64,000 nucleotides of DNA from contig JADFLA010000001.1 in the NCBI GenBank assembly GCA_022564635.1, positions 7,041 through 71,040 on the forward strand, in the 5' to 3' direction. Below the pieces are notes generated by a model. It was not told the DNA's origin, searched no databases, and saw only the letters and a program-made list of their open reading frames with translations. Below, piece after piece: positions 9,592 through 57,431 of this stretch. Source of the DNA: Nanobdellota archaeon (GTDB lineage Archaea; Nanobdellota; Nanobdellia; Woesearchaeales; GW2011-AR4). Each line of letters starts with the position of its first letter. Within the stretch, counting starts at the first letter, position 1. Position numbers and translations under genes: made by a program.

Positions 9592-9861
9592 CTAAATATA
9601 GTAAGATTGGTGTCTACCCCCTACAACCAAAAAAGATAATGAGAAAATAATAATAATCACTCCTATCGATATAATTAATAAAGAATATATTTTATGTTTT
9701 TTCCAAAATTTACTATCCTTTATAAATGTTTGACTTTTTCTCCCTAGCAATAAATTAAGATTTTTTATCTCATCCTTAATACGTCTAATTTCTCTTTCAG
9801 AATAGCGCTTTTCTACTGTTTTTTTTAATTTATTAAAATAATTTTCAGATTCTTGTTCCAT
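9592..9861 (-). CDS. hypothetical tail-anchored small membrane protein
   Basis: charged N-terminal half, single C-terminal TM; 7 nt upstream of 9126..9584 (same strand). Confidence 0.35.
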   Translation of the reverse strand: MEQESENYFNKLKKTVEKRYSEREIRRIKDEIKNLNLLLGRKSQTFIKDSKFWKKHKIYSLLIISIGVIIIIFSLSFLVVGGRHQSYYI

Positions 9862-15935: not shown

Positions 15936-17012
15936 ATGGAAGACAATAAACCAGAAGAGCAATCATCAGAGAGTTCTGCTGAGGGCCAGGAAAGTACACA
16001 GGAAAGCAATACAACAGAAACTAATACTTCTGAAGAAAACAAAGACATTGAAGAAAATAAAAAAGAACCCTTTAAAATAAAATTTCCCAGTTTTAAATTA
16101 AATTTATCCAAAATTAAAAATATATATGAAACCCAATACAAAAAACTCTTGATACTGCCTATTTCTCTTTTATTGATAGCAATATTATTGATTGGATTTA
16201 GTGTAGCAACAACAGGAGATTTTATTCAAAGAGATGTAAGCCTTAAAGGTGGTGTTACAGTAACAATCCCTTCAACGCAACAAATAGATATTTCACAATT
16301 AAAAAATGCTATTTCTCAAAAATTTCCTCAAAATGATATATCAACAAAATCATTAAGCAAGTTTGGATCTCAAGTAGGTGTTATTGTAGAAGCGGATATT
16401 ACACAAGCAGAAGTAAACAATTTAATAGAAGAAATAGGCGAAGCCTTAAACCTAAAACTGACAACTATTGATTACTCTATTCAAATAGTGGGCTCTAGTT
16501 TGGGAGCTTCTTTTTTCAAAGAGATAGTTGTAGCATTGCTAATAGCATTCTTGTTAATGGCATTAGTTGTTTTTATTTATTTTAGAACAATAATCCCATC
16601 AGCAGCTGTTGTCCTAGCAGTTTTCTCTGATATCCTGATAACATTAGCAATAGTTAATCTGTTGGGATTAAGGATAAGCTCAGCAGGCATAGCTGCTTTC
16701 TTGATGTTGATAGGTTACTCTGTTGATACAAATATTTTGCTCTCTACTAGAGTTCTAAAAAGAAAAGAGGGAACAGAAAACGAGAGGTTTTACGGTGCTT
16801 TGAAGACTGGATTAATGATGTCTTCCACAACCTTAATTGCAGTAACTACTGCATTAATATTTACCCAGTCAGAAATAATTAAACAAATTATGATAATTTT
16901 GTTGATTGGATTATTAATTGATTTGATTAATACCTGGATACAGAATGTTGCAATTTTAAGGTTATATTTAGCAAGAAAAGCGAGAAAGGCAATGGGGGAT
17001 GTGCCAACTTAG
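15936..17012 (+). CDS. secF: protein-export membrane protein SecF (with unusual acidic low-complexity N-terminal extension)
   Basis: TM1, ~110-aa periplasmic loop, 5 C-terminal TMs with SecDF signature; archaeal secF-secD order. Confidence 0.8.
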   Translation: MEDNKPEEQSSESSAEGQESTQESNTTETNTSEENKDIEENKKEPFKIKFPSFKLNLSKIKNIYETQYKKLLILPISLLLIAILLIGFSVATTGDFIQRDVSLKGGVTVTIPSTQQIDISQLKNAISQKFPQNDISTKSLSKFGSQVGVIVEADITQAEVNNLIEEIGEALNLKLTTIDYSIQIVGSSLGASFFKEIVVALLIAFLLMALVVFIYFRTIIPSAAVVLAVFSDILITLAIVNLLGLRISSAGIAAFLMLIGYSVDTNILLSTRVLKRKEGTENERFYGALKTGLMMSSTTLIAVTTALIFTQSEIIKQIMIILLIGLLIDLINTWIQNVAILRLYLARKARKAMGDVPT

Positions 17013-17024
17013 GAGAATATTACA

Positions 17025-18770
17025 ATGAACTACAAATTCAAAAAAATAATTACAAATGTACGAGTAATAATTTTGCTGGTTTTCTTAGTTTTGGCTATAG
17101 TTGCCATAAGCCCAAGGCCCGGAATAGAAGGCGTTATAATAGGAAATATAATAACCAACAGCAGTGCATCTGAAGCCGGTATACAACAGCCAGCACCAAC
17201 CACAAGACCAGTAAACAGAGAAAGAATTTTAGAAATTGATAACAAACCTGTAAAAAATGTAGTGGATTATTATAAATATATAAGCCCATTAGATCCCAAT
17301 CAGTCTGTTCAGATAAAGACAAACAGAGCTCTGTACAGGCTAACAACAAGGGAAGATATAGAAATAATAGAATTAAATGAAACTATAACAAAAACAATAG
17401 AAGAAATCATAACTGTAAATGAAACAGTAAATGGAACTATAGTTGAGAAAAACAAGACAATAAAGAAAATAATTGAAGTTCCGAAAACAAAAAAAATAAG
17501 CAAAGGAACACAAGATATTGGAATTAAGGTTTTTAATGCTCCCAGGACAAACATAAAGAAAGGCCTTGACCTGCAGGGTGGTACCAGAGTTCTTTTACAG
17601 CCAGAAACACTATTGCTTCCACAAGATCTGCAAACTTTAATTGACACTATGAAGCAAAGGCTTAATGTTTATGGTTTATCCGATCTAATTATAAGGGATG
17701 CATCTGACTTATCAGGAAATCAATATATTTTAGTAGAGATAGCAGGGGCTAATGAAGAGGAAATAAGGAATTTATTAGCAAGGCAAGGAAAATTTGAAGC
17801 AAAAATAGCTAATCAAACTGTTTTTGTTGGTGGCAAAGACATACTTTTTGTTTGTAGAAGTGCAGATTGTGCTGGAATAGATCCTAATGTAGGTTGCTCT
17901 TCATCCCGCGGACAAACAACATGTGGTTTTAGATTTTCAATTACTTTATCACAAGAAGCAGCGCAGAAACATGCTGATGTGACAAGAGATTTACCAATAA
18001 TAGGAGGCGATGGAACAGGACGAGTAAGTTCAAGAAGCTCTGGTTATTTATCAGAGCCCTTAGAACTGTACCTTGATAATGTAAAGGTAGATGAGCTTAG
18101 TATAGGTGCAAGCTTAAAGGGCAGTGTAACAACACAAATACAGATATCAGGATCCGGTACAGGTTTCTCTCAACAAGAAGCAGTTCTTAATACATTAAAT
18201 AATATGAAAAGACTGCAAACAGTTCTAATCACAGGATCACTGCCTGTTAAATTGAATATAGTTAAGATAGATGCCATAAGCCCTTTCCTTGGAGAAGAAT
18301 TTTTAAAAAATGCATTGTTTGTAGGATTGCTTGCTTTAATTTCCGTTGGTATTGTTGTATTTATAAGATATAGAAAGCTGCAGGTAGCTATACCCATGGT
18401 TTTAATGTCCATATCAGAGGTTATACTTTTATTGGGAGTTGCAGCTGTGATAGGCTGGAATATTGACCTAGCGGCAGTTGCAGGAATTATAATAGCAGTA
18501 GGTATTGGTATAGACCACCAAATTATTATAGCGGATGAGACTTTAAGGGGCAAGGAAGTAATATACGATTGGAAGCAAAGAATAAAAAATGCTTTTTTCA
18601 TCATAATGGCATCCTACTTTACTGTTCTTGTAGCCTTAATACCCTTAATATTCGCAGGAGCCGGTTTGTTAAAGGGCTTTGCAATAACAACAATTTTAGG
18701 GGCATCCATAGGAGTTTTCATCTCCCGTCCAGTATTTGCAAAAGTTATCGAGATTTTAATAAGGGAATAA
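17025..18770 (+). CDS. secD: protein-export membrane protein SecD
   Basis: TM1, large periplasmic domain, 5 C-terminal TMs (…LISVGIVVFIRYRKL…GIDHQIII…); SD AGGAG upstream. Confidence 0.8.
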   Translation: MNYKFKKIITNVRVIILLVFLVLAIVAISPRPGIEGVIIGNIITNSSASEAGIQQPAPTTRPVNRERILEIDNKPVKNVVDYYKYISPLDPNQSVQIKTNRALYRLTTREDIEIIELNETITKTIEEIITVNETVNGTIVEKNKTIKKIIEVPKTKKISKGTQDIGIKVFNAPRTNIKKGLDLQGGTRVLLQPETLLLPQDLQTLIDTMKQRLNVYGLSDLIIRDASDLSGNQYILVEIAGANEEEIRNLLARQGKFEAKIANQTVFVGGKDILFVCRSADCAGIDPNVGCSSSRGQTTCGFRFSITLSQEAAQKHADVTRDLPIIGGDGTGRVSSRSSGYLSEPLELYLDNVKVDELSIGASLKGSVTTQIQISGSGTGFSQQEAVLNTLNNMKRLQTVLITGSLPVKLNIVKIDAISPFLGEEFLKNALFVGLLALISVGIVVFIRYRKLQVAIPMVLMSISEVILLLGVAAVIGWNIDLAAVAGIIIAVGIGIDHQIIIADETLRGKEVIYDWKQRIKNAFFIIMASYFTVLVALIPLIFAGAGLLKGFAITTILGASIGVFISRPVFAKVIEILIRE

Positions 18771-19117
18771 TTTAAAATAAAGCATAAATCTTAAAAAACA
18801 ATAAAGTTCAGAACTGCATTCATAATTAATTCATTAATATTTTAGTTAAATACTATAAAAAATCAAAAAGCAATAAAATAAGAAAATAATAATTCGGTGT
18901 TTTGCTAGTGAATTGCTGCGAACTTGTGAGCAGACGCTTGCAGTACAATAATGCAAAACACCACCTTAAGATTGGTTGTTAAAGATACGAAATAAGATGA
19001 AATTTTCCTTTAAGAAGTTATGAGAGAAAATTTTCGAATTATTAAAAATAAATTTCATTGTTAAAAAGATATAAAAGGTGAAATTAAAAAACATCTGAAC
19101 AAATAATTGTGAACACA

Positions 19118-19224
19118 CGCGAAAATTGAAAATTTTCGGTGAACTGGGAAATTTCAAAGAAATTTCCGGTTTCCCAAAAATTGCAAAGCAATTTTTTAGG
19201 ATCCTGAAAATTCAAAGAATTTTC
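19118..19224. repeat. tandem array of four related 21-bp inverted repeats (9-nt arms, 3-nt spacer) at 28-29-bp spacing, 20 bp upstream of 19245 start
   Basis: gcgaaaatt-gaa-aattttcgg (19118), ggaaatttc-aaa-gaaatttcc (19146), aaaaattgc-aaa-gcaattttt (19175), tgaaaattc-aaa-gaattttca (19204); arms verified as reverse complements. Confidence 0.8.
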
Positions 19225-19244
19225 ATGATAAGATAATAAAACTA

Positions 19245-19637
19245 TTGATAAAAATGGCAACTAAGCTTTGGGCAATGGGGATTGTTTTAGGATGTACCTT
19301 GCTTACTTCAACCGCTCAATTATTCTGGAAATTTGGAGCAGATAAATTAGAATTTAATTTATTAAGCATAATCACCAATATAGAAATACTTGCAGGAATA
19401 TTAATATACTCGATTGCTGGAATATTATTGATTATTAGCTTTAGAGGCGGAGAAGTTTCTGTCTTGTATCCTATATTCGCTACAAGCTATGTATGGGTTA
19501 GTTTCTTGTCTATATTTTTTCTGGGTGAGGTAATGAGTTTATTTAAATGGTTGGGTATCTTTACTATAATTGCCGGAATAGTTCTAATAGGTTTTAGCAG
19601 CAAAAAAACAAGTGCAGATGCAGCAGGAGCGTTTTAA
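19245..19637 (+). CDS. 4-TM EamA/DMT-like small transporter subunit (first of tandem pair)
   Basis: four hydrophobic helices, half-size DMT architecture; translationally coupled (TAATG) to next gene. Confidence 0.6.
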   Translation: MIKMATKLWAMGIVLGCTLLTSTAQLFWKFGADKLEFNLLSIITNIEILAGILIYSIAGILLIISFRGGEVSVLYPIFATSYVWVSFLSIFFLGEVMSLFKWLGIFTIIAGIVLIGFSSKKTSADAAGAF

Positions 19638-19987
19638 TGCCAGCAGAGCTATGGGCAATAGGACTTGTAATCTCAGCTACTTTAGTTGGTTCGTTTGGAC
19701 CTATTTTATTAAAAAAAGCTTCAGCAAAAAAATTATCTAAAATAAGTTCTTTAATGAAAAATTATCATTTATTTGGTGGTGTTGCTCTGTACGCCCTAGG
19801 AACAATACTTTTTATTCCTGCATTAAAAGGCGGTGATTTGTCTATTTTATATCCTTTTGTTGCTTTAACATACATCTGGGTAAGTTTGCTCTCTGTCAAA
19901 TTCCTAGGAGAAAAAATGAATTCAATCAAGTGGTTGGGAATATTGTTTATTATAATTGGTGTTAGTTTTATTGGGATTGGGAGTTGA
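19637..19987 (+). CDS. 4-TM EamA/DMT-like small transporter subunit (second of tandem pair)
   Basis: paralogous to upstream ORF (…GGDLSILYPFVALTYIWVSLLSVKFLGEKM…). Confidence 0.6.
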   Translation: MPAELWAIGLVISATLVGSFGPILLKKASAKKLSKISSLMKNYHLFGGVALYALGTILFIPALKGGDLSILYPFVALTYIWVSLLSVKFLGEKMNSIKWLGILFIIIGVSFIGIGS

Positions 19988-22334: not shown

Positions 22335-22598
22335 TTAATATAATTGAGACCTTGAATAAACCATTATTACCAATATAATAATCATTACTACAACTAAAAT
22401 TATTAATGGAATTGTTTCAACTTGATTTTTGGTATTGCTCTTTTCTATTGTAGGTAAATCAGGCTCAAATTTATGCAATGCAACATTATATTTCATTGGA
22501 GGTTCATGATATGCATAAAAATGCTTTTGCATTTTTGGCATCCTAGAAATCCGAGAGGATTTCTTTGATATTATTTTTTTCTTGCTTTTCTTCTTCAT
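22335..22598 (-). CDS. hypothetical small membrane protein
   Basis: basic N-terminus, single C-terminal TM. Confidence 0.3.
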   Translation of the reverse strand: MKKKSKKKIISKKSSRISRMPKMQKHFYAYHEPPMKYNVALHKFEPDLPTIEKSNTKNQVETIPLIILVVVMIIILVIMVYSRSQLY

Positions 22599-32494: not shown

Positions 32495-32558
32495 TTGGAA
32501 ATTTCCAAAACCGGTGGAAAACAAAGTTTTCCTGGGCTTTGAAAATTAAAAATTTCCA
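32495..32558. repeat. cluster of three GAAA/TTTC-type palindromes related to the dispersed paired-palindrome family
   Basis: ttggaaatttccaa (32495, perfect 14-bp palindrome), ggaaaac-aaa-gttttcc (32516), tgaaaatt-aaa-aatttcca (32540, 1 mismatch). Confidence 0.6.
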
Positions 32559-32610
32559 AAACCATTAAAAATAATAAGAAAATTAAATTAAAAAAATAAT
32601 GTATTGACAA

Positions 32611-33916: not shown

Positions 33917-34531
33917 ATGGTAACAAAGATAAAGGAAAAAATCATAGTTGAGGGTGATGATAGCAAGGAACATCTTGGCCTTGTTCATGTTGTAACAGGT
34001 GATGGAAAAGGTAAAACTACCTCATCATTAGGTTTAGCTGTTCGTGCTTTAGGTAGCAACTTAAGGGTTTGCATGATACAATTCCTCAAGTCTGGAACTA
34101 CTGGAGAGCTTTATACAATAAAAAAACACCTTCCAGGAATGGAAATAGAGCAATTCGGTGTTGATGCAGTAAAGGAAAGGCAGCAGAAACTTGATGCTTT
34201 TAGAGATAAAGGAAGCAAGTTTGTTTTTAATCCCGATGAGCAGGAGAAAGAAGCTGCCATACTTGGATTCCAGCATGCAAAAAAAATAATTAATTCTAAA
34301 GAGTATGAATTGGTAATCTTGGATGAGATAAATGTTGTTTTGGATAAATCTTTAATACCAATAAAAGATGTTCTTGATTTAATGGAAAACCATGGAAAAG
34401 TTGAATTATATTTTACTGGCAGGGATGCACCTCAGGAATTAATGGATAAAGCAGATTATGTTAATATTATCAAGGGAGTAAAGCATCCATGGCAGAAAGG
34501 TATAAAAGCAAGAAAAGGGATTGAGTATTAA
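33917..34531 (+). CDS. cobA: cob(I)alamin adenosyltransferase (CobA/CobO/BtuR family)
   Basis: P-loop GDGKGKTTSSLGLAVRALG…RVCMIQFLK…GE family signature. Confidence 0.75.
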   Translation: MVTKIKEKIIVEGDDSKEHLGLVHVVTGDGKGKTTSSLGLAVRALGSNLRVCMIQFLKSGTTGELYTIKKHLPGMEIEQFGVDAVKERQQKLDAFRDKGSKFVFNPDEQEKEAAILGFQHAKKIINSKEYELVILDEINVVLDKSLIPIKDVLDLMENHGKVELYFTGRDAPQELMDKADYVNIIKGVKHPWQKGIKARKGIEY

Positions 34532-34585
34532 AACCATGAAAATTTTCAATTTTCAGGGTACAAAAAATCCGGAGGATTTTTAAGT

Positions 34586-36457
34586 ATGCCAAAACTAAAG
34601 TTGAGCAACAACGCAATAAAAATACTTGAAAAAAGGTATCTGATAAAAGATGATAATGGCAAAGTAATTGAAAAACCAGAAGATTTGTTCAAAAGAGTTG
34701 CAAATAACATAGCATTAGCAGATGCAAAATATCTATTAAAGGAAGAAATAGCAAATTTAGAGAGCAATGAAGAATACTTTGAATTAGTAAAAACAAAACT
34801 CTTCCAAAAATTATTAAATAAAAACAAAAAAGTTAAGAAAAAAATAGAAAAAACAGAAAAAGAATTCTATAATTTAATGATTAGTTTAGATTTTTTACCT
34901 AATTCTCCAACCTTATTTAATGCTGGCAGAGATTTACAACAGCTTGCTGCATGTTTTGTTCTGCCTGTTGAAGATAATCTTGACTCAATCTTCAAAGCAT
35001 TGCATTATGCTGCAAAAATATCAAAATCAGGCTCCGGAACCGGATTTAACTTCTCAAGATTAAGGCCAAAAAATGATGTGATAAAATCAGTTGCCGGTTT
35101 TTCTTCTGGACCTTTATCATTTATGAAGATTTTTGATGCAGTAACAGAGCAAATTAAATTAGGAGGTCTAAGAAGAGGAGCTCATATGGGTATATTAAGA
35201 GTCGACCATCCAGATATAGAAGAATTTGTCACAATTAAATCCCGCGAAAAGGTTCTGGAAAATTTCAATATTTCTGTCGCAGTTACAGATAAATTCATGA
35301 ATGCTGTTCTGAAAAATAAGGACTATAAACTCATAAACCCTAGGACTCAAAGTGAAGTTAAGGAGGAAAATGCAGAAAAAATTTTTGAGCTTATATGCGA
35401 AGAAGCCAACAAAACTGGAGATCCAGGCATAATTTTCCTTGATAGAATAAACAAAGACAATCCAATACCAGAGCTGGGTATTCTAGAGGCTACTGACTCA
35501 TGTGGTGAACAACCCTTATTACCCTATGAATCAGCTAATTTAGGTTCCATTAATCTTTCTAATATGGCTAAGAATGGTAATATTAATTTTAATAAATTAA
35601 AAACAACTATTCACAATGCAATCCATTTCCTGGATAATGTAATTGATATGTGCCACTACCCTAGTCCTGAAACAAAAGAAATTGTTCATGCAAACAGAAA
35701 AATAGGTTTGGGTGTAATGGGATTTGCTGATATGCTCATTAAATTAAAAATTCCTTACAACTCTGAAAAAGCAGTAAAAACAGCAGAAAAAATTATTGCC
35801 TTCATCAGGAAAGAGGCTGATAATGCTTCTGCAAACCTTGCAAGAGAAAGGATGACATTCCCAAACTGGGATAATAGCATTTACAATAGAAAAAGCAAGC
35901 ACTTTAAAGGAAAACATCTACCATTAAGAAATGCTACTAGATTAACTTTAGCCCCTACAGGAAGCATAAGCATCATAGCTAACACTTCTTTTGGCATCGA
36001 ACCATTATTTGCATTGTCTTTTGTTAGAGCTTTAGATGATGGTACAGAGCTTTTAATTGTTGATAAGAATTTTAAGGAAGCTATGGAGAAAAAAAAGCTT
36101 TACGATAAGGATTTTATGAAATATATAGCAAAAAAAGGCACTATTCAAAATATGGAATCAATACCAAAAGATATTAGAAATACATTTGTAGTTTCTTATG
36201 ACATAAGCCCGGAATATCATGTAAAAATACAGGCAGCTTTTCAAAAATATGTTGATAATGCTGTTTCAAAAACGGTAACATTGCCTGAAATAGCAACTGT
36301 AGAAGATGTGAAAAATACATTTTTACTTGCACACAAACTTGGATGCAAAGGCATTTCCATCTACCGTTTTGGTTCAAGAGATGACCAGGTATTGTTTTTA
36401 AGAGCAATGAAGGAAGAACAGATTAATTTGACTAATTGGCTAAGACATTTGAGATAA
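34586..36457 (+). CDS. nrdJ: adenosylcobalamin-dependent (class II) ribonucleotide reductase
   Basis: LPNSPTLFNAGR, ACFVLPVEDNLDSI, catalytic Cys/Glu region SCGEQPL; adjacent to cobA-family gene. Confidence 0.8.
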   Translation: MPKLKLSNNAIKILEKRYLIKDDNGKVIEKPEDLFKRVANNIALADAKYLLKEEIANLESNEEYFELVKTKLFQKLLNKNKKVKKKIEKTEKEFYNLMISLDFLPNSPTLFNAGRDLQQLAACFVLPVEDNLDSIFKALHYAAKISKSGSGTGFNFSRLRPKNDVIKSVAGFSSGPLSFMKIFDAVTEQIKLGGLRRGAHMGILRVDHPDIEEFVTIKSREKVLENFNISVAVTDKFMNAVLKNKDYKLINPRTQSEVKEENAEKIFELICEEANKTGDPGIIFLDRINKDNPIPELGILEATDSCGEQPLLPYESANLGSINLSNMAKNGNINFNKLKTTIHNAIHFLDNVIDMCHYPSPETKEIVHANRKIGLGVMGFADMLIKLKIPYNSEKAVKTAEKIIAFIRKEADNASANLARERMTFPNWDNSIYNRKSKHFKGKHLPLRNATRLTLAPTGSISIIANTSFGIEPLFALSFVRALDDGTELLIVDKNFKEAMEKKKLYDKDFMKYIAKKGTIQNMESIPKDIRNTFVVSYDISPEYHVKIQAAFQKYVDNAVSKTVTLPEIATVEDVKNTFLLAHKLGCKGISIYRFGSRDDQVLFLRAMKEEQINLTNWLRHLR

Positions 36458-45556: not shown

Positions 45557-45919
45557 TCAACCACAAATATCCATAAATTCTTTAGGAGAAACAATTTTTG
45601 TATTTCCAAACTTTTTAAGTTTCAGTAGATGTTTATTCCCAGAAACAATATAGTCTGCATTAATTCTTGCAGAACATCTTAATATCATATCATCATCAGG
45701 GTCTTCTTTAACGACATTTCCAATATATTTAGGAGCGACAATTTTAGCATAAGTTAAGATCAAGTTGATTTGCCTTTTAATCATTTCTTCTGGTTCATCA
45801 AAATCTCTTCTCATAACTTTCTCTACATCTTTAAGAATTTCTAAAGTGATAAAGACTTGAATTTTCTTGTCTATTGCTTTTTCTACAATCATATGTGGAT
45901 TTCCAAGTTCCCAGAACAC
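45557..45919 (-). CDS. PIN-domain (VapC-like, TIGR00305-type) toxin, N-terminally truncated (first catalytic Asp region missing; GTG/internal ATG start only)
   Basis: …IVAPKYIGNVVKEDPDDDMILRCSARINADYIVSGNKHLLKLKKFGNTKIVSPKEF collinear with PIN C-terminal two-thirds; upstream in-frame sequence is a palindromic element then a stop. Confidence 0.5.
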   Translation of the reverse strand: MFWELGNPHMIVEKAIDKKIQVFITLEILKDVEKVMRRDFDEPEEMIKRQINLILTYAKIVAPKYIGNVVKEDPDDDMILRCSARINADYIVSGNKHLLKLKKFGNTKIVSPKEFMDICG

Positions 45920-45920
45920 G

Positions 45921-45964
45921 CGAAAATCGAAGATTTTCGGTGTCCTGGAAATCTATGATTTCCA
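45921..45964. repeat. paired-palindrome element copy (minus orientation), ~89% identical to 52094..52137
   Basis: cgaaaatc-gaa-gattttcg + GGTGTCCTG + tggaaatc-tat-gatttcca; compensatory substitutions relative to copy D. Confidence 0.8.
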
Positions 45965-46004
45965 TGAGATAGAAGAAATGAATATGTTTGTGTCTAAAAC
46001 AACC

Positions 46005-51819: not shown

Positions 51820-52093
51820 TTTTACCCTATTTTAGCCATTATTTGACGCTCTAAAGCCCCTTCTGAACCCTTCACATTTGATACATTTTTGACCTTTTCC
51901 AGGCCTTCAAAAGCCTTTATGAGCAACTTACTTTCAGGGCTCTTAAAACCACTAATTCCATTGAATTTAAAAACCTTCATTTTTGATCCAAATTTTTGGA
52001 TTACTGATCCATAATTTTTTCTAAAATTTTTTATAATTAATTTTTAATTTACCATTAATTTATTTTTTATTATCAAATTTTTTAATGAATTCA

Positions 52094-52137
52094 TGAAAAT
52101 CGTAGATTTTCAGGACACCAAAAATCTTTGATTTTTG
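52094..52137. repeat. paired-palindrome element copy (plus orientation)
   Basis: tgaaaatc-gta-gattttca + GGACACC + caaaaatc-ttt-gatttttg, followed by GCGTGTT; near-identical to reverse complement of 45921..45964. Confidence 0.8.
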
Positions 52138-52196
52138 CGTGTTTTATTATTGTTTTTATTATTGAATTATCCTTTTTTTAATCTCTTTCCAGTCTC

Positions 52197-52317
52197 ATTC
52201 CCACTTAATTCCCATCATATTCCCAATATAATCCCATTTTATTCCCAAATATTTAAACTTTTCGTCTTATATCATTCCCAAATATGTCCCATTATATTCC
52301 CAATATAGTCCCAGAAA
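52197..52317 (+). repeat. 11-bp iteron array: nine ATTCCCAaTAT-like units in two clusters (5 + 4) on a strict 11-bp phase, 45 bp upstream of 52358
   Basis: CCCA cores at 52200, 52211, 52222, 52233, 52244, then 52277, 52288, 52299, 52310 (gap = 3 x 11); two pairs of units identical. Confidence 0.8.
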
Positions 52318-52357: not shown

Positions 52358-53002
52358 ATGTTCGGAATTAAGATACAATCAAGCACTGATAAAAAACTAT
52401 CTCAAATGCAAAACCTTTTGATGAGATCCTTTTCTAATGTAAAAAATGACACCCAAAAACTCTTCCAATGGCTTAACCACATACATCAAAAAAATCTAGA
52501 CCAAGATAACCAGATAAAGCAGCTACAGCTAGAGCTGTCCTACATCCCAAAAAAACCAGAGGACATCAGAAAGATAATAGACAGCTATTATTCTTTTGAC
52601 AATCTTACAGAGAGGATAAAGATGCTAAATGAGAGGATAGACAGCATATCTGGAGGAAGAAGTGAGACTTACACACAAGCAATGCATCCAGAAATCAGCG
52701 AAATAGAATCCCGACTAACACAGCTAGAAGAGCAAAAAAAAGCAACAATAAGGGAAAAAGTAGTAAAAAGAGTCACAAGAAACTCAAAAGAATACGTAAA
52801 GCAACTAATGCTCTCCTACATTAGAAAATACACCCAAATAGGAGCCTTACAGCTAAAGGACATGATAGTTTATGACCAGGGTTTGTGCTCAAAAAGCTCA
52901 TTTTACAGGCTTTTAGACGAGATTGAAGCCCTAGATGATATAGGGATAGTAAAGAAAGGCAAGCAAAAGTACTATCTTTATAAACAAATAAAAGAGCAAT
53001 AA
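52358..53002 (+). CDS. hypothetical coiled-coil protein with C-terminal winged-helix-like domain
   Basis: heptad-rich N-terminus; C-terminal …LCSKSSFYRLLDEIEALDDIGIVKKGKQKYY wHTH-like. Confidence 0.4.
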   Translation: MFGIKIQSSTDKKLSQMQNLLMRSFSNVKNDTQKLFQWLNHIHQKNLDQDNQIKQLQLELSYIPKKPEDIRKIIDSYYSFDNLTERIKMLNERIDSISGGRSETYTQAMHPEISEIESRLTQLEEQKKATIREKVVKRVTRNSKEYVKQLMLSYIRKYTQIGALQLKDMIVYDQGLCSKSSFYRLLDEIEALDDIGIVKKGKQKYYLYKQIKEQ

Positions 53003-56959: not shown

Positions 56960-57431
56960 TCTTAATTCTACTATCAAACCTCATAATCACTTCTCAGCTT
57001 CGCAAAAAGTATTGAACTTTTTACGCAGAGCTCTTCGAGACCTTTTTGTTCCAAAAAGTCGCTGAGAACAAGATACGGCAGGGCAAAACGTGTAACCCCT
57101 TCGGGCATCTAATGCACGCTTTATGGTTCGCTCCTTGTTCGCTCTGAGCTCACAATCTCGTTCAACCTACGTTTTTCTCAACTCTAAAAAAATTCCCACT
57201 CTACAACTTGTGGAATGCCTCAAGTTGTGAGGGCAATTTTATTGAGGAGAAAAACATCATAAAGCTTCCCATTAGGCGAACATTTTGAACTCCACTTTGT
57301 GTTTAATCTACTGATTTAAACCGTAATTTTAGCTTTACCGGTTTCGCAAAAAATTAAGATTTTTTACGTAAACCTTACAGGACGTTTTTCTTTTAACGGT
57401 TCTTTGAGATTACGGAATGTGTGTAAGATAT

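What the first reader, a model, noticed from the sequence alone, without database searches (positions are those of the whole stretch)
19118..19224. Array of four different but related 21-bp perfect or near-perfect palindromes at 28-29-bp spacing immediately upstream of the EamA-like transporter pair
Each unit has 9-nt arms with a 3-nt (AAA/GAA) spacer: GCGAAAATT-gaa-AATTTTCGG, GGAAATTTC-aaa-GAAATTTCC, AAAAATTGC-aaa-GCAATTTTT, TGAAAATTC-aaa-GAATTTTCA. All share a GAAA..TTTC core but differ at arm positions. Each palindrome is therefore internally self-consistent while the array is heterogeneous, which is neither CRISPR-like nor a simple tandem duplication. The first unit plus CAGTTCACC resembles the dispersed paired-palindrome element. 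The array ends 20 bp before the ATG at 19245. It could be a multi-operator region, an origin-like unwinding region, or a string of short RNA hairpins.
Basis: seen in the sequence. Interest (0 to 1): 0.6.

Follow-up and report, generated by a model that had tools for sequence, protein, structure and literature searches.

The report
Dispersed four-hairpin repeat element, archaeal
The four palindromes upstream of the transporter genes are not a control region for those genes but one copy of a small, modular hairpin repeat that is scattered through the genomes of Woesearchaeota (DPANN archaea) and can even sit in frame inside an essential gene, much like bacterial REP/BIME or Rickettsia palindromic elements.

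Summary
Four perfect palindromes (arms 8-9 nt, 3-nt centre) lie at 19120-19225, and no shuffle reproduced such a cluster. They form one discrete 114-nt element, 19115-19228. Its outer hairpins are hpA (ACACG-CGAAAAT..ATTTTCG-GTG) and hpB (TCC-TGAAAAT..ATTTTCA-TGA), and a 60-nt two-hairpin inner module sits at the GGTG|TCC junction. The same four-hairpin form, with the same linkers, occurs at 12 or more other loci in metagenomes. The window holds five more copies. Stems covary almost only through Watson-Crick changes. Orientation relative to genes is random. No target-site duplication was found.

Related MAGs carry the element in frame in pyrG at two different sites. Most relatives lack the array at the SecF-EamA junction, including a strain whose EamA1 is 96% identical.

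The element is best read as a REP/BIME-, BOX- or RPE-like non-autonomous repeat of a marine Woesearchaeon. It is not an operator array, riboswitch, terminator or origin. The mobilising enzyme is unknown: an IS200-type Y1 transposase found beside one copy showed no link to the family.

The parts
19115..19228 (+). Complete four-hairpin repeat element (ACACG...CATGA), 114 nt
   Evidence: Pattern and alignment with 10 other four-hairpin copies that share the linkers GGTG-AACTG-G, CC-GGTTTCCC and T-TAGGATCC-TG. Two cmsearch hits at 19112-19174 (48.5 bits) and 19176-19231 (30.2 bits). Absent from the homologous spacer in L010 and L012.
19116..19141 (+). hpA (unit 1): lower stem CAC/GTG, bulged G19119, upper stem CGAAAATT/AATTTTCG, loop GAA
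   Evidence: (helix 1, 100% paired, 2 covarying pairs).
19142..19201 (+). 60-nt inner module (units 2 and 3) at the GGTG|TCC junction of the canonical two-hairpin element
   Evidence: The canonical form reads GGTG|TCCTGAAAAT (88 of 124 copies have hpB adjacent). Paralogous composite copies L089 and L104 differ by exactly this 60-nt block, with no duplication at the junction. In the sequences held, the module is seen only inside hpA...hpB.
19147..19167 (+). Unit 2 upper stem GGAAATTTC-AAA-GAAATTTCC
   Evidence: helix 2.
19176..19196 (+). Unit 3 upper stem AAAAATTGC-AAA-GCAATTTTT (lower stem TCC/GGA at 19172-19174 and 19199-19201)
   Evidence: helix 3, 5 pairs with changes on both sides.
19202..19228 (+). 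hpB (unit 4): lower stem TC/GA with a conserved C.T mismatch, upper stem TGAAAATTC/GAATTTTCA
   Evidence: The lower pair T31-A58 covaries to C-G in L129, L167 and L199.
45913..45970 (+). Canonical two-hairpin copy
   Evidence: cmsearch 81.3 bits; 86% identical to unit 1 and the 5' arm of unit 2 over 36 nt.
52088..52145 (-). Canonical two-hairpin copy in a divergent intergenic region
   Evidence: cmsearch 81.4 bits.
34531..34590 (-). Two-hairpin copy that fills the whole 54-nt gap between the CobA/BtuR-like gene and the ribonucleotide reductase gene
   Evidence: cmsearch 47.7 bits. It lies 5 nt after the stop codon and 4 nt before the ATG.
22508..22571 (+). Two-hairpin copy overlapping the predicted start of a 65-aa gene (22335-22532, minus strand)
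   Evidence: cmsearch 40.3 bits.
32507..32564 (+). Divergent three-hairpin copy
   Evidence: cmsearch 29.4 bits; sequence.
18783..19240 (.). Spacer of about 458 nt between SecF and EamA that is missing from the sister strain (L003, L004); the element lies at its 3' end
   Evidence: The part at 18880-19118 is weakly homologous to the spacers of L010 and L012.
19254..19987 (+). Downstream EamA/ArnE-like half-transporter pair (19254-19637 and 19637-19987); context only, not part of the element
   Evidence: Pfam EamA; homologues named ArnE/EamA by their sources.

Best explanation
The array is one copy of a lineage-wide, modular, non-autonomous palindromic repeat of Woesearchaeota (DPANN archaea). 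The basic unit is about 54 nt: hpA, a 3-nt linker, then hpB. Each hairpin has a short conserved lower stem, a conserved bulge or mismatch, a conserved GAAAAT/ATTTTC middle, and a free apical 1-3 bp plus loop. Extra hairpin modules sit at the GGTG|TCC junction or in hairpin loops. The window copy is the recurrent four-hairpin form, which carries a 60-nt two-hairpin inner module. Shown here: the family is dispersed and present or absent at orthologous sites. It lies mostly in intergenic DNA in either orientation. It is maintained as strictly Watson-Crick palindromes. It shows no target-site duplication. It can lie in frame inside pyrG. Inferred (about 0.35): the element spreads as DNA, with the folded single-stranded hairpins recognised by a structure-specific recombinase supplied in trans. 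An HUH/Y1 enzyme of the IS200/IS605 or RAYT type is the obvious candidate. Insertions would go into single-stranded loops and junctions. Inferred (weak): at this locus the element probably lies between the spacer's TATA-like box (about 19066-19075) and the EamA start. If so, it adds four hairpins to the 5' leader as a side effect rather than a designed control.
For: It gave about 80-100 distinct loci under different de-duplication criteria. The four-hairpin form with identical linkers is found at 12 other loci with unrelated flanks. The window has 6 loci, or 7 two-hairpin units, in 64 kb. About 20 elements were found in 1.1 Mb drawn from 80 Woesearchaeota/Nanoarchaeota species loci. In those loci 74% of family hairpins lie in the 11% that is non-coding. 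Intergenic types are hit in proportion to their length: 26 tandem, 13 divergent, 7 convergent. Orientation relative to co-directional neighbours is 16 to 14. For covariation, hpB has 608 Watson-Crick pairs, 2 G.T and 12 other mismatches. The hpA R-Y pair is GC 52, AT 21, GT 2, AC 0. There are 73 cells changed on both sides against 4 changed on one side, and 97.2% of cells are paired against at most 56% for slid controls. The four-hairpin alignment gives 95% paired with 11 covarying pairs. For mobility, pyrG carries the element in frame at site 1 in L056 and L079. It carries it at site 2 in L009 and L010. The window's pyrG has it at neither site. These copies score 34-63 bits with the model. 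L089 and L104 differ by a precise 60-nt block at GGTG|TCC. The orthologous loci L113 and L122 carry different inner modules. Nested copies occur in hairpin loops. The array is absent from L003 and L004 and from the homologous spacers of L010 and L012. No target-site duplication was detected: 2.05 against 1.73 +/- 0.17. A census paper reports 105 MITEs per Mb in a Woesearchaeal genome, among the highest densities in archaea (PMC11602168).
Against: No transposase has been tied to the family. A motif screen of 1.8 Mb found a single Y1_Tnp gene (L128, Pfam E = 4.8e-22). It lies beside a copy, but it belongs to an ordinary IS200 with its own, unrelated end hairpins and a TCATTG target. Ten other loci encoding its relatives carry no family hairpins. 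No clean filled-versus-empty pair of otherwise identical orthologous sites was obtained for the 114-nt element itself. The L003/L004 difference covers the whole 458-nt spacer. Watson-Crick-only covariation would also arise if an RNA had to fold in both orientations. About one fifth of copies have mutually complementary flanks, and this is not explained with certainty.
Confidence: 0.85

Rival explanations
1. The element is a selfish repeat in origin but has been co-opted as RNA. Transcribed in the 5' leader of the EamA operon or between cistrons, the hairpins would act as mRNA stabilisers, processing sites or translation modulators, as some bacterial REPs do.
For: The region folds well as RNA (-35.5 kcal/mol, z = -4.55). 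Several copies occupy the whole gap between co-directional genes and must be co-transcribed (34531-34590 in the window; L005, L020, L037). In the 34563-34581 hairpin the loop and 3' arm carry GGAGGA 9 nt before the ATG. The spacer has a conserved TATA-like box about 40 nt upstream of the element (inference).
Against: There is no orientation bias relative to transcription (16 to 14). G.U pairs are nearly absent (2 of 622). Copies lie in divergent promoter regions and inside a coding sequence. Rfam gives no match at any threshold. Close relatives do without the element at this locus.
Confidence: 0.15
2. The array is an operator array. The four palindromes would be binding sites for a dimeric (winged-helix) regulator that controls the EamA-like transporter pair.
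For: The units are perfect dyads with a shared A-tract/T-tract core, spaced at 27-29 bp, just upstream of the gene start.
Against: The half-sites differ among the four units, while pairing within each unit is kept. This is the signature of a structure, not of one recognition sequence. The identical four-hairpin unit occurs at 12 or more unrelated loci and in frame in pyrG. Orthologous junctions lack it.
Confidence: 0.03
3. The array is a terminator or insulator that uncouples secDF from the EamA genes through bidirectional hairpins with T-runs.
For: The 3' arms carry T4-T6 runs on both strands. The element lies between co-directional genes that are contiguous, and probably co-transcribed, in relatives.
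Against: The family is not enriched in convergent or tandem spacers beyond their share of length. It is tolerated inside pyrG and between tightly coupled cistrons, where termination would be harmful. From general knowledge, archaeal termination relies on oligo-T tracts rather than hairpins.
Confidence: 0.06
4. The array is a riboswitch-like tandem-hairpin sensor, comparable to guanidine-II (mini-ykkC) upstream of small multidrug-type transporters, or else an origin or unwinding element.
For: Tandem small hairpins lie upstream of a pair of small EamA/EmrE-like membrane proteins. The sequence is AT-rich.
Against: The loops are AAA or GAA and vary, and are not ACGR. Rfam gives no hit. The element is dispersed without regard to neighbouring genes and in both orientations. 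No Orc1/Cdc6 gene or origin-recognition repeats were noted beside it.
Confidence: 0.01

Closest known systems
Bacterial REP / BIME elements and REPINs (mobilised by RAYT Y1 transposases)
   Same: Both are short imperfect palindromes with a conserved irregularity. Both are high-copy and mostly extragenic. Both are arranged in pairs and mosaic clusters with conserved linkers, lack a target-site duplication, and keep structure rather than sequence at the hairpin tip.
   Different: The host is archaeal (DPANN). There is no GTAG or CGTC head: the head is A-W-ACACG. The hairpins in a unit are tandem and distinct (hpA and hpB) rather than inverted copies of one REP. No RAYT gene was found.
Streptococcus pneumoniae BOX elements (boxA-(boxB)n-boxC)
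   Same: Both have a modular build, with fixed terminal modules and a variable number or type of internal modules.
   Different: The sequences are unrelated. The modules here are single hairpins with Watson-Crick covariation. The comparison rests on general knowledge and was not tested.
Rickettsia palindromic elements (RPE)
   Same: Both are palindromic repeats that insert in frame into essential protein-coding genes and are translated. Here this is seen in pyrG at two sites, adding 14-18 aa.
   Different: RPEs are 100-150 bp, bacterial and unrelated in sequence. This element is about 54-114 nt and mostly intergenic.
IS200/IS605-derived miniature elements (PATEs)
   Same: Both have two different subterminal hairpins at the two ends, no terminal inverted repeats in the classical sense, and no target-site duplication. 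A Y1 transposase family is present in the phylum (L223, a Nanoarchaeota MAG).
   Different: No conserved target tetra- or pentanucleotide lies next to the left end. The hairpins are unrelated to those of the IS200 found here.
Integron attC sites
   Same: Both are recognised, or presumably recognised, as folded single strands. Both have a conserved base, extrahelical bases and a free central part.
   Different: The R''/R' consensus (RYYYAAC/GTTRRRY) is absent. The hairpins are 26-30 nt rather than 57-141 nt. There are no cassettes and no integrase.

Membership tests
REP/BIME-RAYT (REPIN) system | Short (20-40 nt) imperfect palindromes, high-copy, mainly extragenic | tested here: met
   Hairpins are 26-30 nt. 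The metagenome scan returned more than 120 loci. 74% of family hairpins lie in the 11% that is non-coding.
REP/BIME-RAYT (REPIN) system | Conserved GTAG or CGTC tetranucleotide at the head of the palindrome (PMC3733652) | tested here: not met
   The consensus head is A-W-ACACGCG and the tail is CATGA-n-A-T. Neither GTAG nor CGTC is present.
REP/BIME-RAYT (REPIN) system | A single-copy Y1 (RAYT) gene flanked by inverted REPs | tested here: inconclusive
   An HUH...Y motif screen of 1.8 Mb found only an ordinary IS200 tnpA (L128) with unrelated hairpins. No whole genome of the lineage could be scanned.
Classical MITE | Terminal inverted repeats plus a target-site duplication | tested here: not met
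   The ends share only the GAAAAT core. Junction direct repeats are 2.05 against 1.73 +/- 0.17 in the control. The 60-nt module is flanked by no duplication.
Rickettsia palindromic elements | In-frame insertion into coding genes with retention of the reading frame | tested here: met
   pyrG in L056, L079, L009 and L010 carries inserts of 42-54 nt, all multiples of 3 and free of stop codons.
Rickettsia palindromic elements | Sequence homology to RPE families and a Rickettsiales host | not tested
   The host is an archaeon. No comparison with RPE sequences was run.
Transcription-factor operator array | Conserved half-site sequence, and conservation at orthologous promoters | tested here: not met
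   Half-sites differ between units. The array is absent at orthologous junctions.
Guanidine-II (mini-ykkC) or other riboswitch | Conserved loop (ACGR), fixed orientation upstream of the regulated gene, and a match to the Rfam model | tested here: not met
   The loops are AAA, GAA or variable. Orientation is random. Rfam gives no hit.
CRISPR array | Identical direct repeats separated by unique spacers of similar length | tested here: not met
   The units are 79-89% alike and there is no unique spacer. The linkers are the conserved part.
IS200/IS605-derived PATE | Insertion 3' of a fixed tetra- or pentanucleotide, with end hairpins matching a cognate TnpA element | tested here: not met
   There is no fixed target beyond an A at position -2. 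The IS200 in L128 and L213-L223 has a TCATTG target and different hairpins.

The most novel reading that the evidence does not exclude
The hairpin modules would be the substrates of a dedicated, still unidentified structure-specific recombinase in DPANN archaea. That would make this the first archaeal counterpart of a REPIN-RAYT system. It would insert without duplication into single-stranded loops and junctions, build nested mosaics, and add translated peptides to essential enzymes such as CTP synthase.
Probability: 0.3. Interest if true: 0.7.

Novelty: new variant of a known kind. Interest (0 to 1): 0.5.

Why it matters
DPANN archaea have tiny, gene-dense genomes, yet this lineage tolerates a prolific family of hairpin repeats. 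The window has about one unit per 9 kb. These repeats reshape intergenic regions, split operon junctions and insert in frame into essential genes.

The family offers a clean natural data set: hundreds of copies, strict Watson-Crick covariation and conserved bulges. That makes it useful for finding the enzyme that recognises folded DNA in these uncultured organisms. The copies are also practical strain markers, and they probably break metagenome assemblies.

For the finding as posed, the main value is negative. The array should not be annotated as a regulatory site, riboswitch or origin.

Tried and rejected
- **Rfam and tRNA scans.** Rfam at gathering threshold on the window returned nothing. 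Rfam at E-value threshold on ten element loci and on 18700-19300 gave only sub-threshold chance hits. No tRNA or tmRNA gene was found.
- **Three-way-junction RNA (ribozyme-like) idea.** This came from copies whose flanks pair with each other. Only about one fifth of copies show it, and the flanks match another hairpin family (CCACCAGT-type). It is therefore better read as nesting inside another hairpin.
- **BHB-intron idea for the pyrG inserts.** Rejected, because all inserts are multiples of 3 and free of stop codons.
- **Link to a Y1 transposase.** A motif screen found one gene, confirmed as Y1_Tnp. Its ends show no similarity to the element. Its relatives' loci lack the element.
- **Autonomous version.** No long hpA...ORF...hpB element was found.
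- **Target-site duplication.** None detected.
- **Viral contigs.** No match.
- **Presence/absence polymorphism of the other window copies.** Exact-protein look-ups were uninformative. The strains were identical, or the contigs ended about 50 nt short of the copy.
- **Literature.** Nothing was found on such elements in DPANN beyond a bulk MITE census.

Full report
**1. The observation**

The region 19120-19225 contains four perfect palindromes with 8-9-nt arms and a 3-nt centre, spaced 27/29/29 nt start to start. The window is AT-rich (about 31% G+C), but chance does not explain the cluster. The window has 12 such palindromes against 3.4 +/- 1.8 in 200 dinucleotide-preserving shuffles. None of those shuffles gave a cluster of more than two. 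Shuffling the 474-nt spacer alone gives 0.06 palindromes per shuffle against 4 observed. As single strands the 124 nt fold into four hairpins, at -28.6 kcal/mol as DNA (z = -6.0) and -35.5 kcal/mol as RNA (z = -4.6).

The start of the downstream gene is the ATG at 19254, because homologues are 127 aa. The TTG at 19245 is not the start.

**2. Host and gene context**

The neighbouring genes are SecD (15936-17012) and SecF (17025-18770), followed by a pair of small EamA/ArnE-like membrane proteins at 19254-19637 and 19637-19987. Sources name the homologues as coming from 'Candidatus Woesearchaeota archaeon', many of them from marine samples. The window is therefore from a DPANN archaeon.

**3. 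The array is not conserved at this locus**

In about 13 of the 20 closest relatives fetched from genome collections, the SecF stop codon lies only a few to about 50 nt from the EamA start codon, with no array. Two contigs of a sister strain (L003, L004) have an EamA1 that is 96% identical and an identical EamA2. They have about 34 nt where the window has 483 nt.

Two more distant relatives (L010, L012) share a weakly homologous spacer of about 240 nt. It includes a stem-loop with compensatory changes and a TATA-like box. In the alignment the four-hairpin block is a clean gap in both.

**4. The array is one copy of a dispersed family**

The window holds further paired palindromes with the same flanks. 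These were found first by eye and regex. A covariance model built from 55 copies then confirmed them at 52088-52145(-), 45913-45970(+), 34531-34590(-), 22508-22571(+) and 32507-32564(+), plus the two halves of the array.

These collapse to about 80-100 distinct loci under the different de-duplication criteria used.

The canonical element is A-W-ACACG-CGAAAATC-NNN-GATTTTCG-GTG|TCC|TGAAAATnn-NNN-nnATTTTCA-TGA. The window's four-hairpin arrangement recurs at 12 other loci with unrelated flanks. Those loci are L089, L090, L103, L110, L112, L143, L150, L164, L171, L176, L195 and L203. The linkers are the same throughout: GGTG-AACTG-G, CC-GGTTTCCC and T-TAGGATCC-TG.

The 'array' is therefore a discrete 114-nt unit, 19115-19228. 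It consists of the canonical hpA and hpB with a 60-nt two-hairpin module (19142-19201) at the GGTG|TCC junction.

Other inner modules occupy the same junction in other copies. In one case the inserted module is a nested hpA. Some copies carry insertions in the hpB loop (L161, L163). About a fifth of copies lie inside the loop of another hairpin family (CCACCAGT-type). Larger composites of about 185 and 220 nt that embed the core also occur at several loci.

**5. Distribution**

Across 1.17 Mb from 80 Woesearchaeota/Nanoarchaeota species loci, 74 of 100 perfect-stem family hairpins lie in the 11% that is non-coding. The model finds about 20 elements in roughly 15 species.

Intergenic types are hit in proportion to their total length: 26 tandem, 13 divergent and 7 convergent, against 62%, 28% and 10% of intergenic length. 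Element orientation relative to co-directional neighbours is 16 to 14.

Several copies fill the entire gap between two cistrons (window 34531-34590). These patterns fit neither terminators, nor promoter elements, nor a sense-strand RNA motif.

**6. Structure is what is conserved, and only through Watson-Crick pairs**

In 55 two-hairpin copies, 97.2% of cells pair, against 91.7% in shuffles and at most 56% in slid controls. There are 73 cells with changes on both sides against 4 with changes on one side. A separate count on hpB gives 608 Watson-Crick pairs, 2 G.T and 12 other mismatches. The degenerate R/Y pair allowed by the search pattern came out as GC 52, AT 21, GT 2 and AC 0. The four-hairpin alignment gives 95% paired and 11 covarying pairs.

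A bulged G in hpA and a C.T mismatch in hpB are conserved. The near absence of wobble pairs points to a constraint on DNA, either as folded single strands or through arm-to-arm correction. The alternative is a structure that must form on both strands. A one-strand RNA would not give this pattern.

**7. Evidence for turnover and mobility**

- CTP synthase (pyrG) carries the element in frame at two different positions. Site 1 is in L056 and L079 (18 aa, TQENQRFSGHKKSHRFFS). Site 2 is in L009 (17 aa) and L010 (14 aa). The window's pyrG has neither insert. These segments score 34-63 bits with the model. All inserts are multiples of three without stop codons, so they are translated rather than spliced.
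- Paralogous composite copies L089 and L104 differ by exactly the 60-nt inner module, with no duplication at the junction.
- Orthologous loci L113 and L122 carry different inner modules.
- The array is absent from close and distant orthologous spacers.
- No target-site duplication is detectable.

**8. Mechanism**

Shown here: this is a dispersed, modular, structure-constrained DNA repeat with turnover.

Inferred: it propagates as a non-autonomous element whose folded single-stranded hairpins are recognised by an enzyme supplied in trans. Four features resemble substrates of HUH/Y1 transposases (IS200/IS605, RAYT):
- the lack of a target-site duplication;
- two different end hairpins;
- conserved extrahelical bases;
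- insertion into loops and junctions.

I could not link any such enzyme to the family. The only Y1_Tnp gene in 1.8 Mb (L128, E = 4.8e-22) lies 150 nt from a copy. It belongs to an ordinary IS200 with its own hairpins (CTTGGGAC-TAAA-GTCCCAAG) and a TCATTG target. Ten further loci encoding relatives of that transposase, including a Nanoarchaeota MAG, lack the element.

At the EamA locus the element probably lies in the 5' leader, downstream of a conserved TATA-like box at about 19066-19075. This is an inference. Any effect on expression would be incidental.

**9. Comparison with known systems**

In behaviour the family resembles bacterial REP/BIME or REPIN elements, the modular BOX elements, and Rickettsia palindromic elements (in-frame coding insertions). 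It fails the sequence-level membership tests for each class:
- REPs: no GTAG or CGTC head (PMC3733652), and no RAYT found.
- Classical MITEs: no terminal inverted repeats or target-site duplication.
- IS200/IS605-derived PATEs: no fixed target and no cognate ends.
- attC sites, CRISPR and Rfam families: no match.

A census paper notes that a Woesearchaeal genome has one of the highest MITE densities among archaea, at 105 per Mb (PMC11602168). Abundance of small repeats in the lineage has therefore been seen in bulk. I found no description of this family or its architecture. A general survey reports 'REPs' in a few cultured archaea using a loose hairpin definition, and it does not cover DPANN (PMC12306157).

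**10. Verdict**

The regulatory and origin interpretations are not supported. The feature is a copy of a new variant of a known kind of element, namely small palindromic dispersed repeats. Interest is moderate.

Noticed in passing
window 52197-52313: A heptamer of the type ATTCCCA (core TCCCA) recurs at exactly 11-bp phasing in two blocks. The first block is at 52197, 52208, 52219, 52230 and 52241. The second is at 52274, 52285, 52296 and 52307. The blocks flank an AT-rich 27-mer, upstream of the 214-aa gene 52358-53002 (no Pfam match). The arrangement looks like a phased protein-binding or iteron-like array.
   Followed up: partly
window 18885-18973 (and L010 ~9750-9800, L012 ~9815-9860): A 10-bp stem GGTGTTTTGC/GCAAAACACC encloses a variable loop. 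The stem is conserved with compensatory changes in the SecF-EamA spacers of L010 (CGTTTTTGC/GCAAAAACG) and L012 (GGCGTTTTTGCC/GGCAAAAACGCC). It may be a small RNA or a leader element. Rfam gives no match.
   Followed up: partly
L056 6192-6237, L079 4129-4174, L009 3587-3632, L010 5260-5278: The hairpin repeat is inserted in frame in CTP synthase (pyrG) at two different sites in different MAGs. L079 also has an unrelated 31-aa hairpin-rich insert at site 2.
   Followed up: yes
L128 278-709 (-), L213-L223: An IS200-type element encodes a 143-aa Y1 transposase. It is very abundant in metagenomes (394 cluster representatives, many on short contigs) and is present in a Nanoarchaeota MAG. It inserts 3' of TCATTG and ends in GGAGGTCATT.
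   Followed up: partly
L087, L106, L128, L135, L185; L089, L104: Larger composite repeats of about 185 nt (TATAGCGGAGGACATAAA...core...GGTCACTTACTATA) and about 220 nt embed the two- or four-hairpin core. They occur at several different loci.
   Followed up: partly
window 22517-22564: A two-hairpin copy overlaps the predicted ATG (22532) of a 65-aa gene on the minus strand. The hairpin sequence AAAAATGC supplies the start codon, so the true start of this gene is uncertain.
   Followed up: no
window 34563-34581: In the hairpin just upstream of the ribonucleotide reductase gene, the loop and 3' arm carry GGAGGA 9 nt before the ATG at 34586. A Shine-Dalgarno-like sequence is thus embedded in a repeat hairpin.
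   Followed up: no
window 34586-36457 vs L210 2170-3615: The ribonucleotide reductase gene is intact (623 aa) in the window and in L211. One assembly of the same strain (L210) calls it as two pieces of 95 aa and 526 aa. This is a frameshift or an assembly error.
   Followed up: no
L207, L208, L209 (contig starts) vs window ~52186: Three independent assemblies of the sister strain all begin at the same base, about 50 nt downstream of the hairpin copy at 52094-52137. This suggests that the repeat or its flank breaks assemblies there.
   Followed up: no
window 57004-57058: Another pair of palindromes, AAAAAGT-ATTGA-ACTTTTT and CTTTTTG-TTC-CAAAAAG, lies 38 nt apart start to start. The stems differ from those of the main family.
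   Followed up: no
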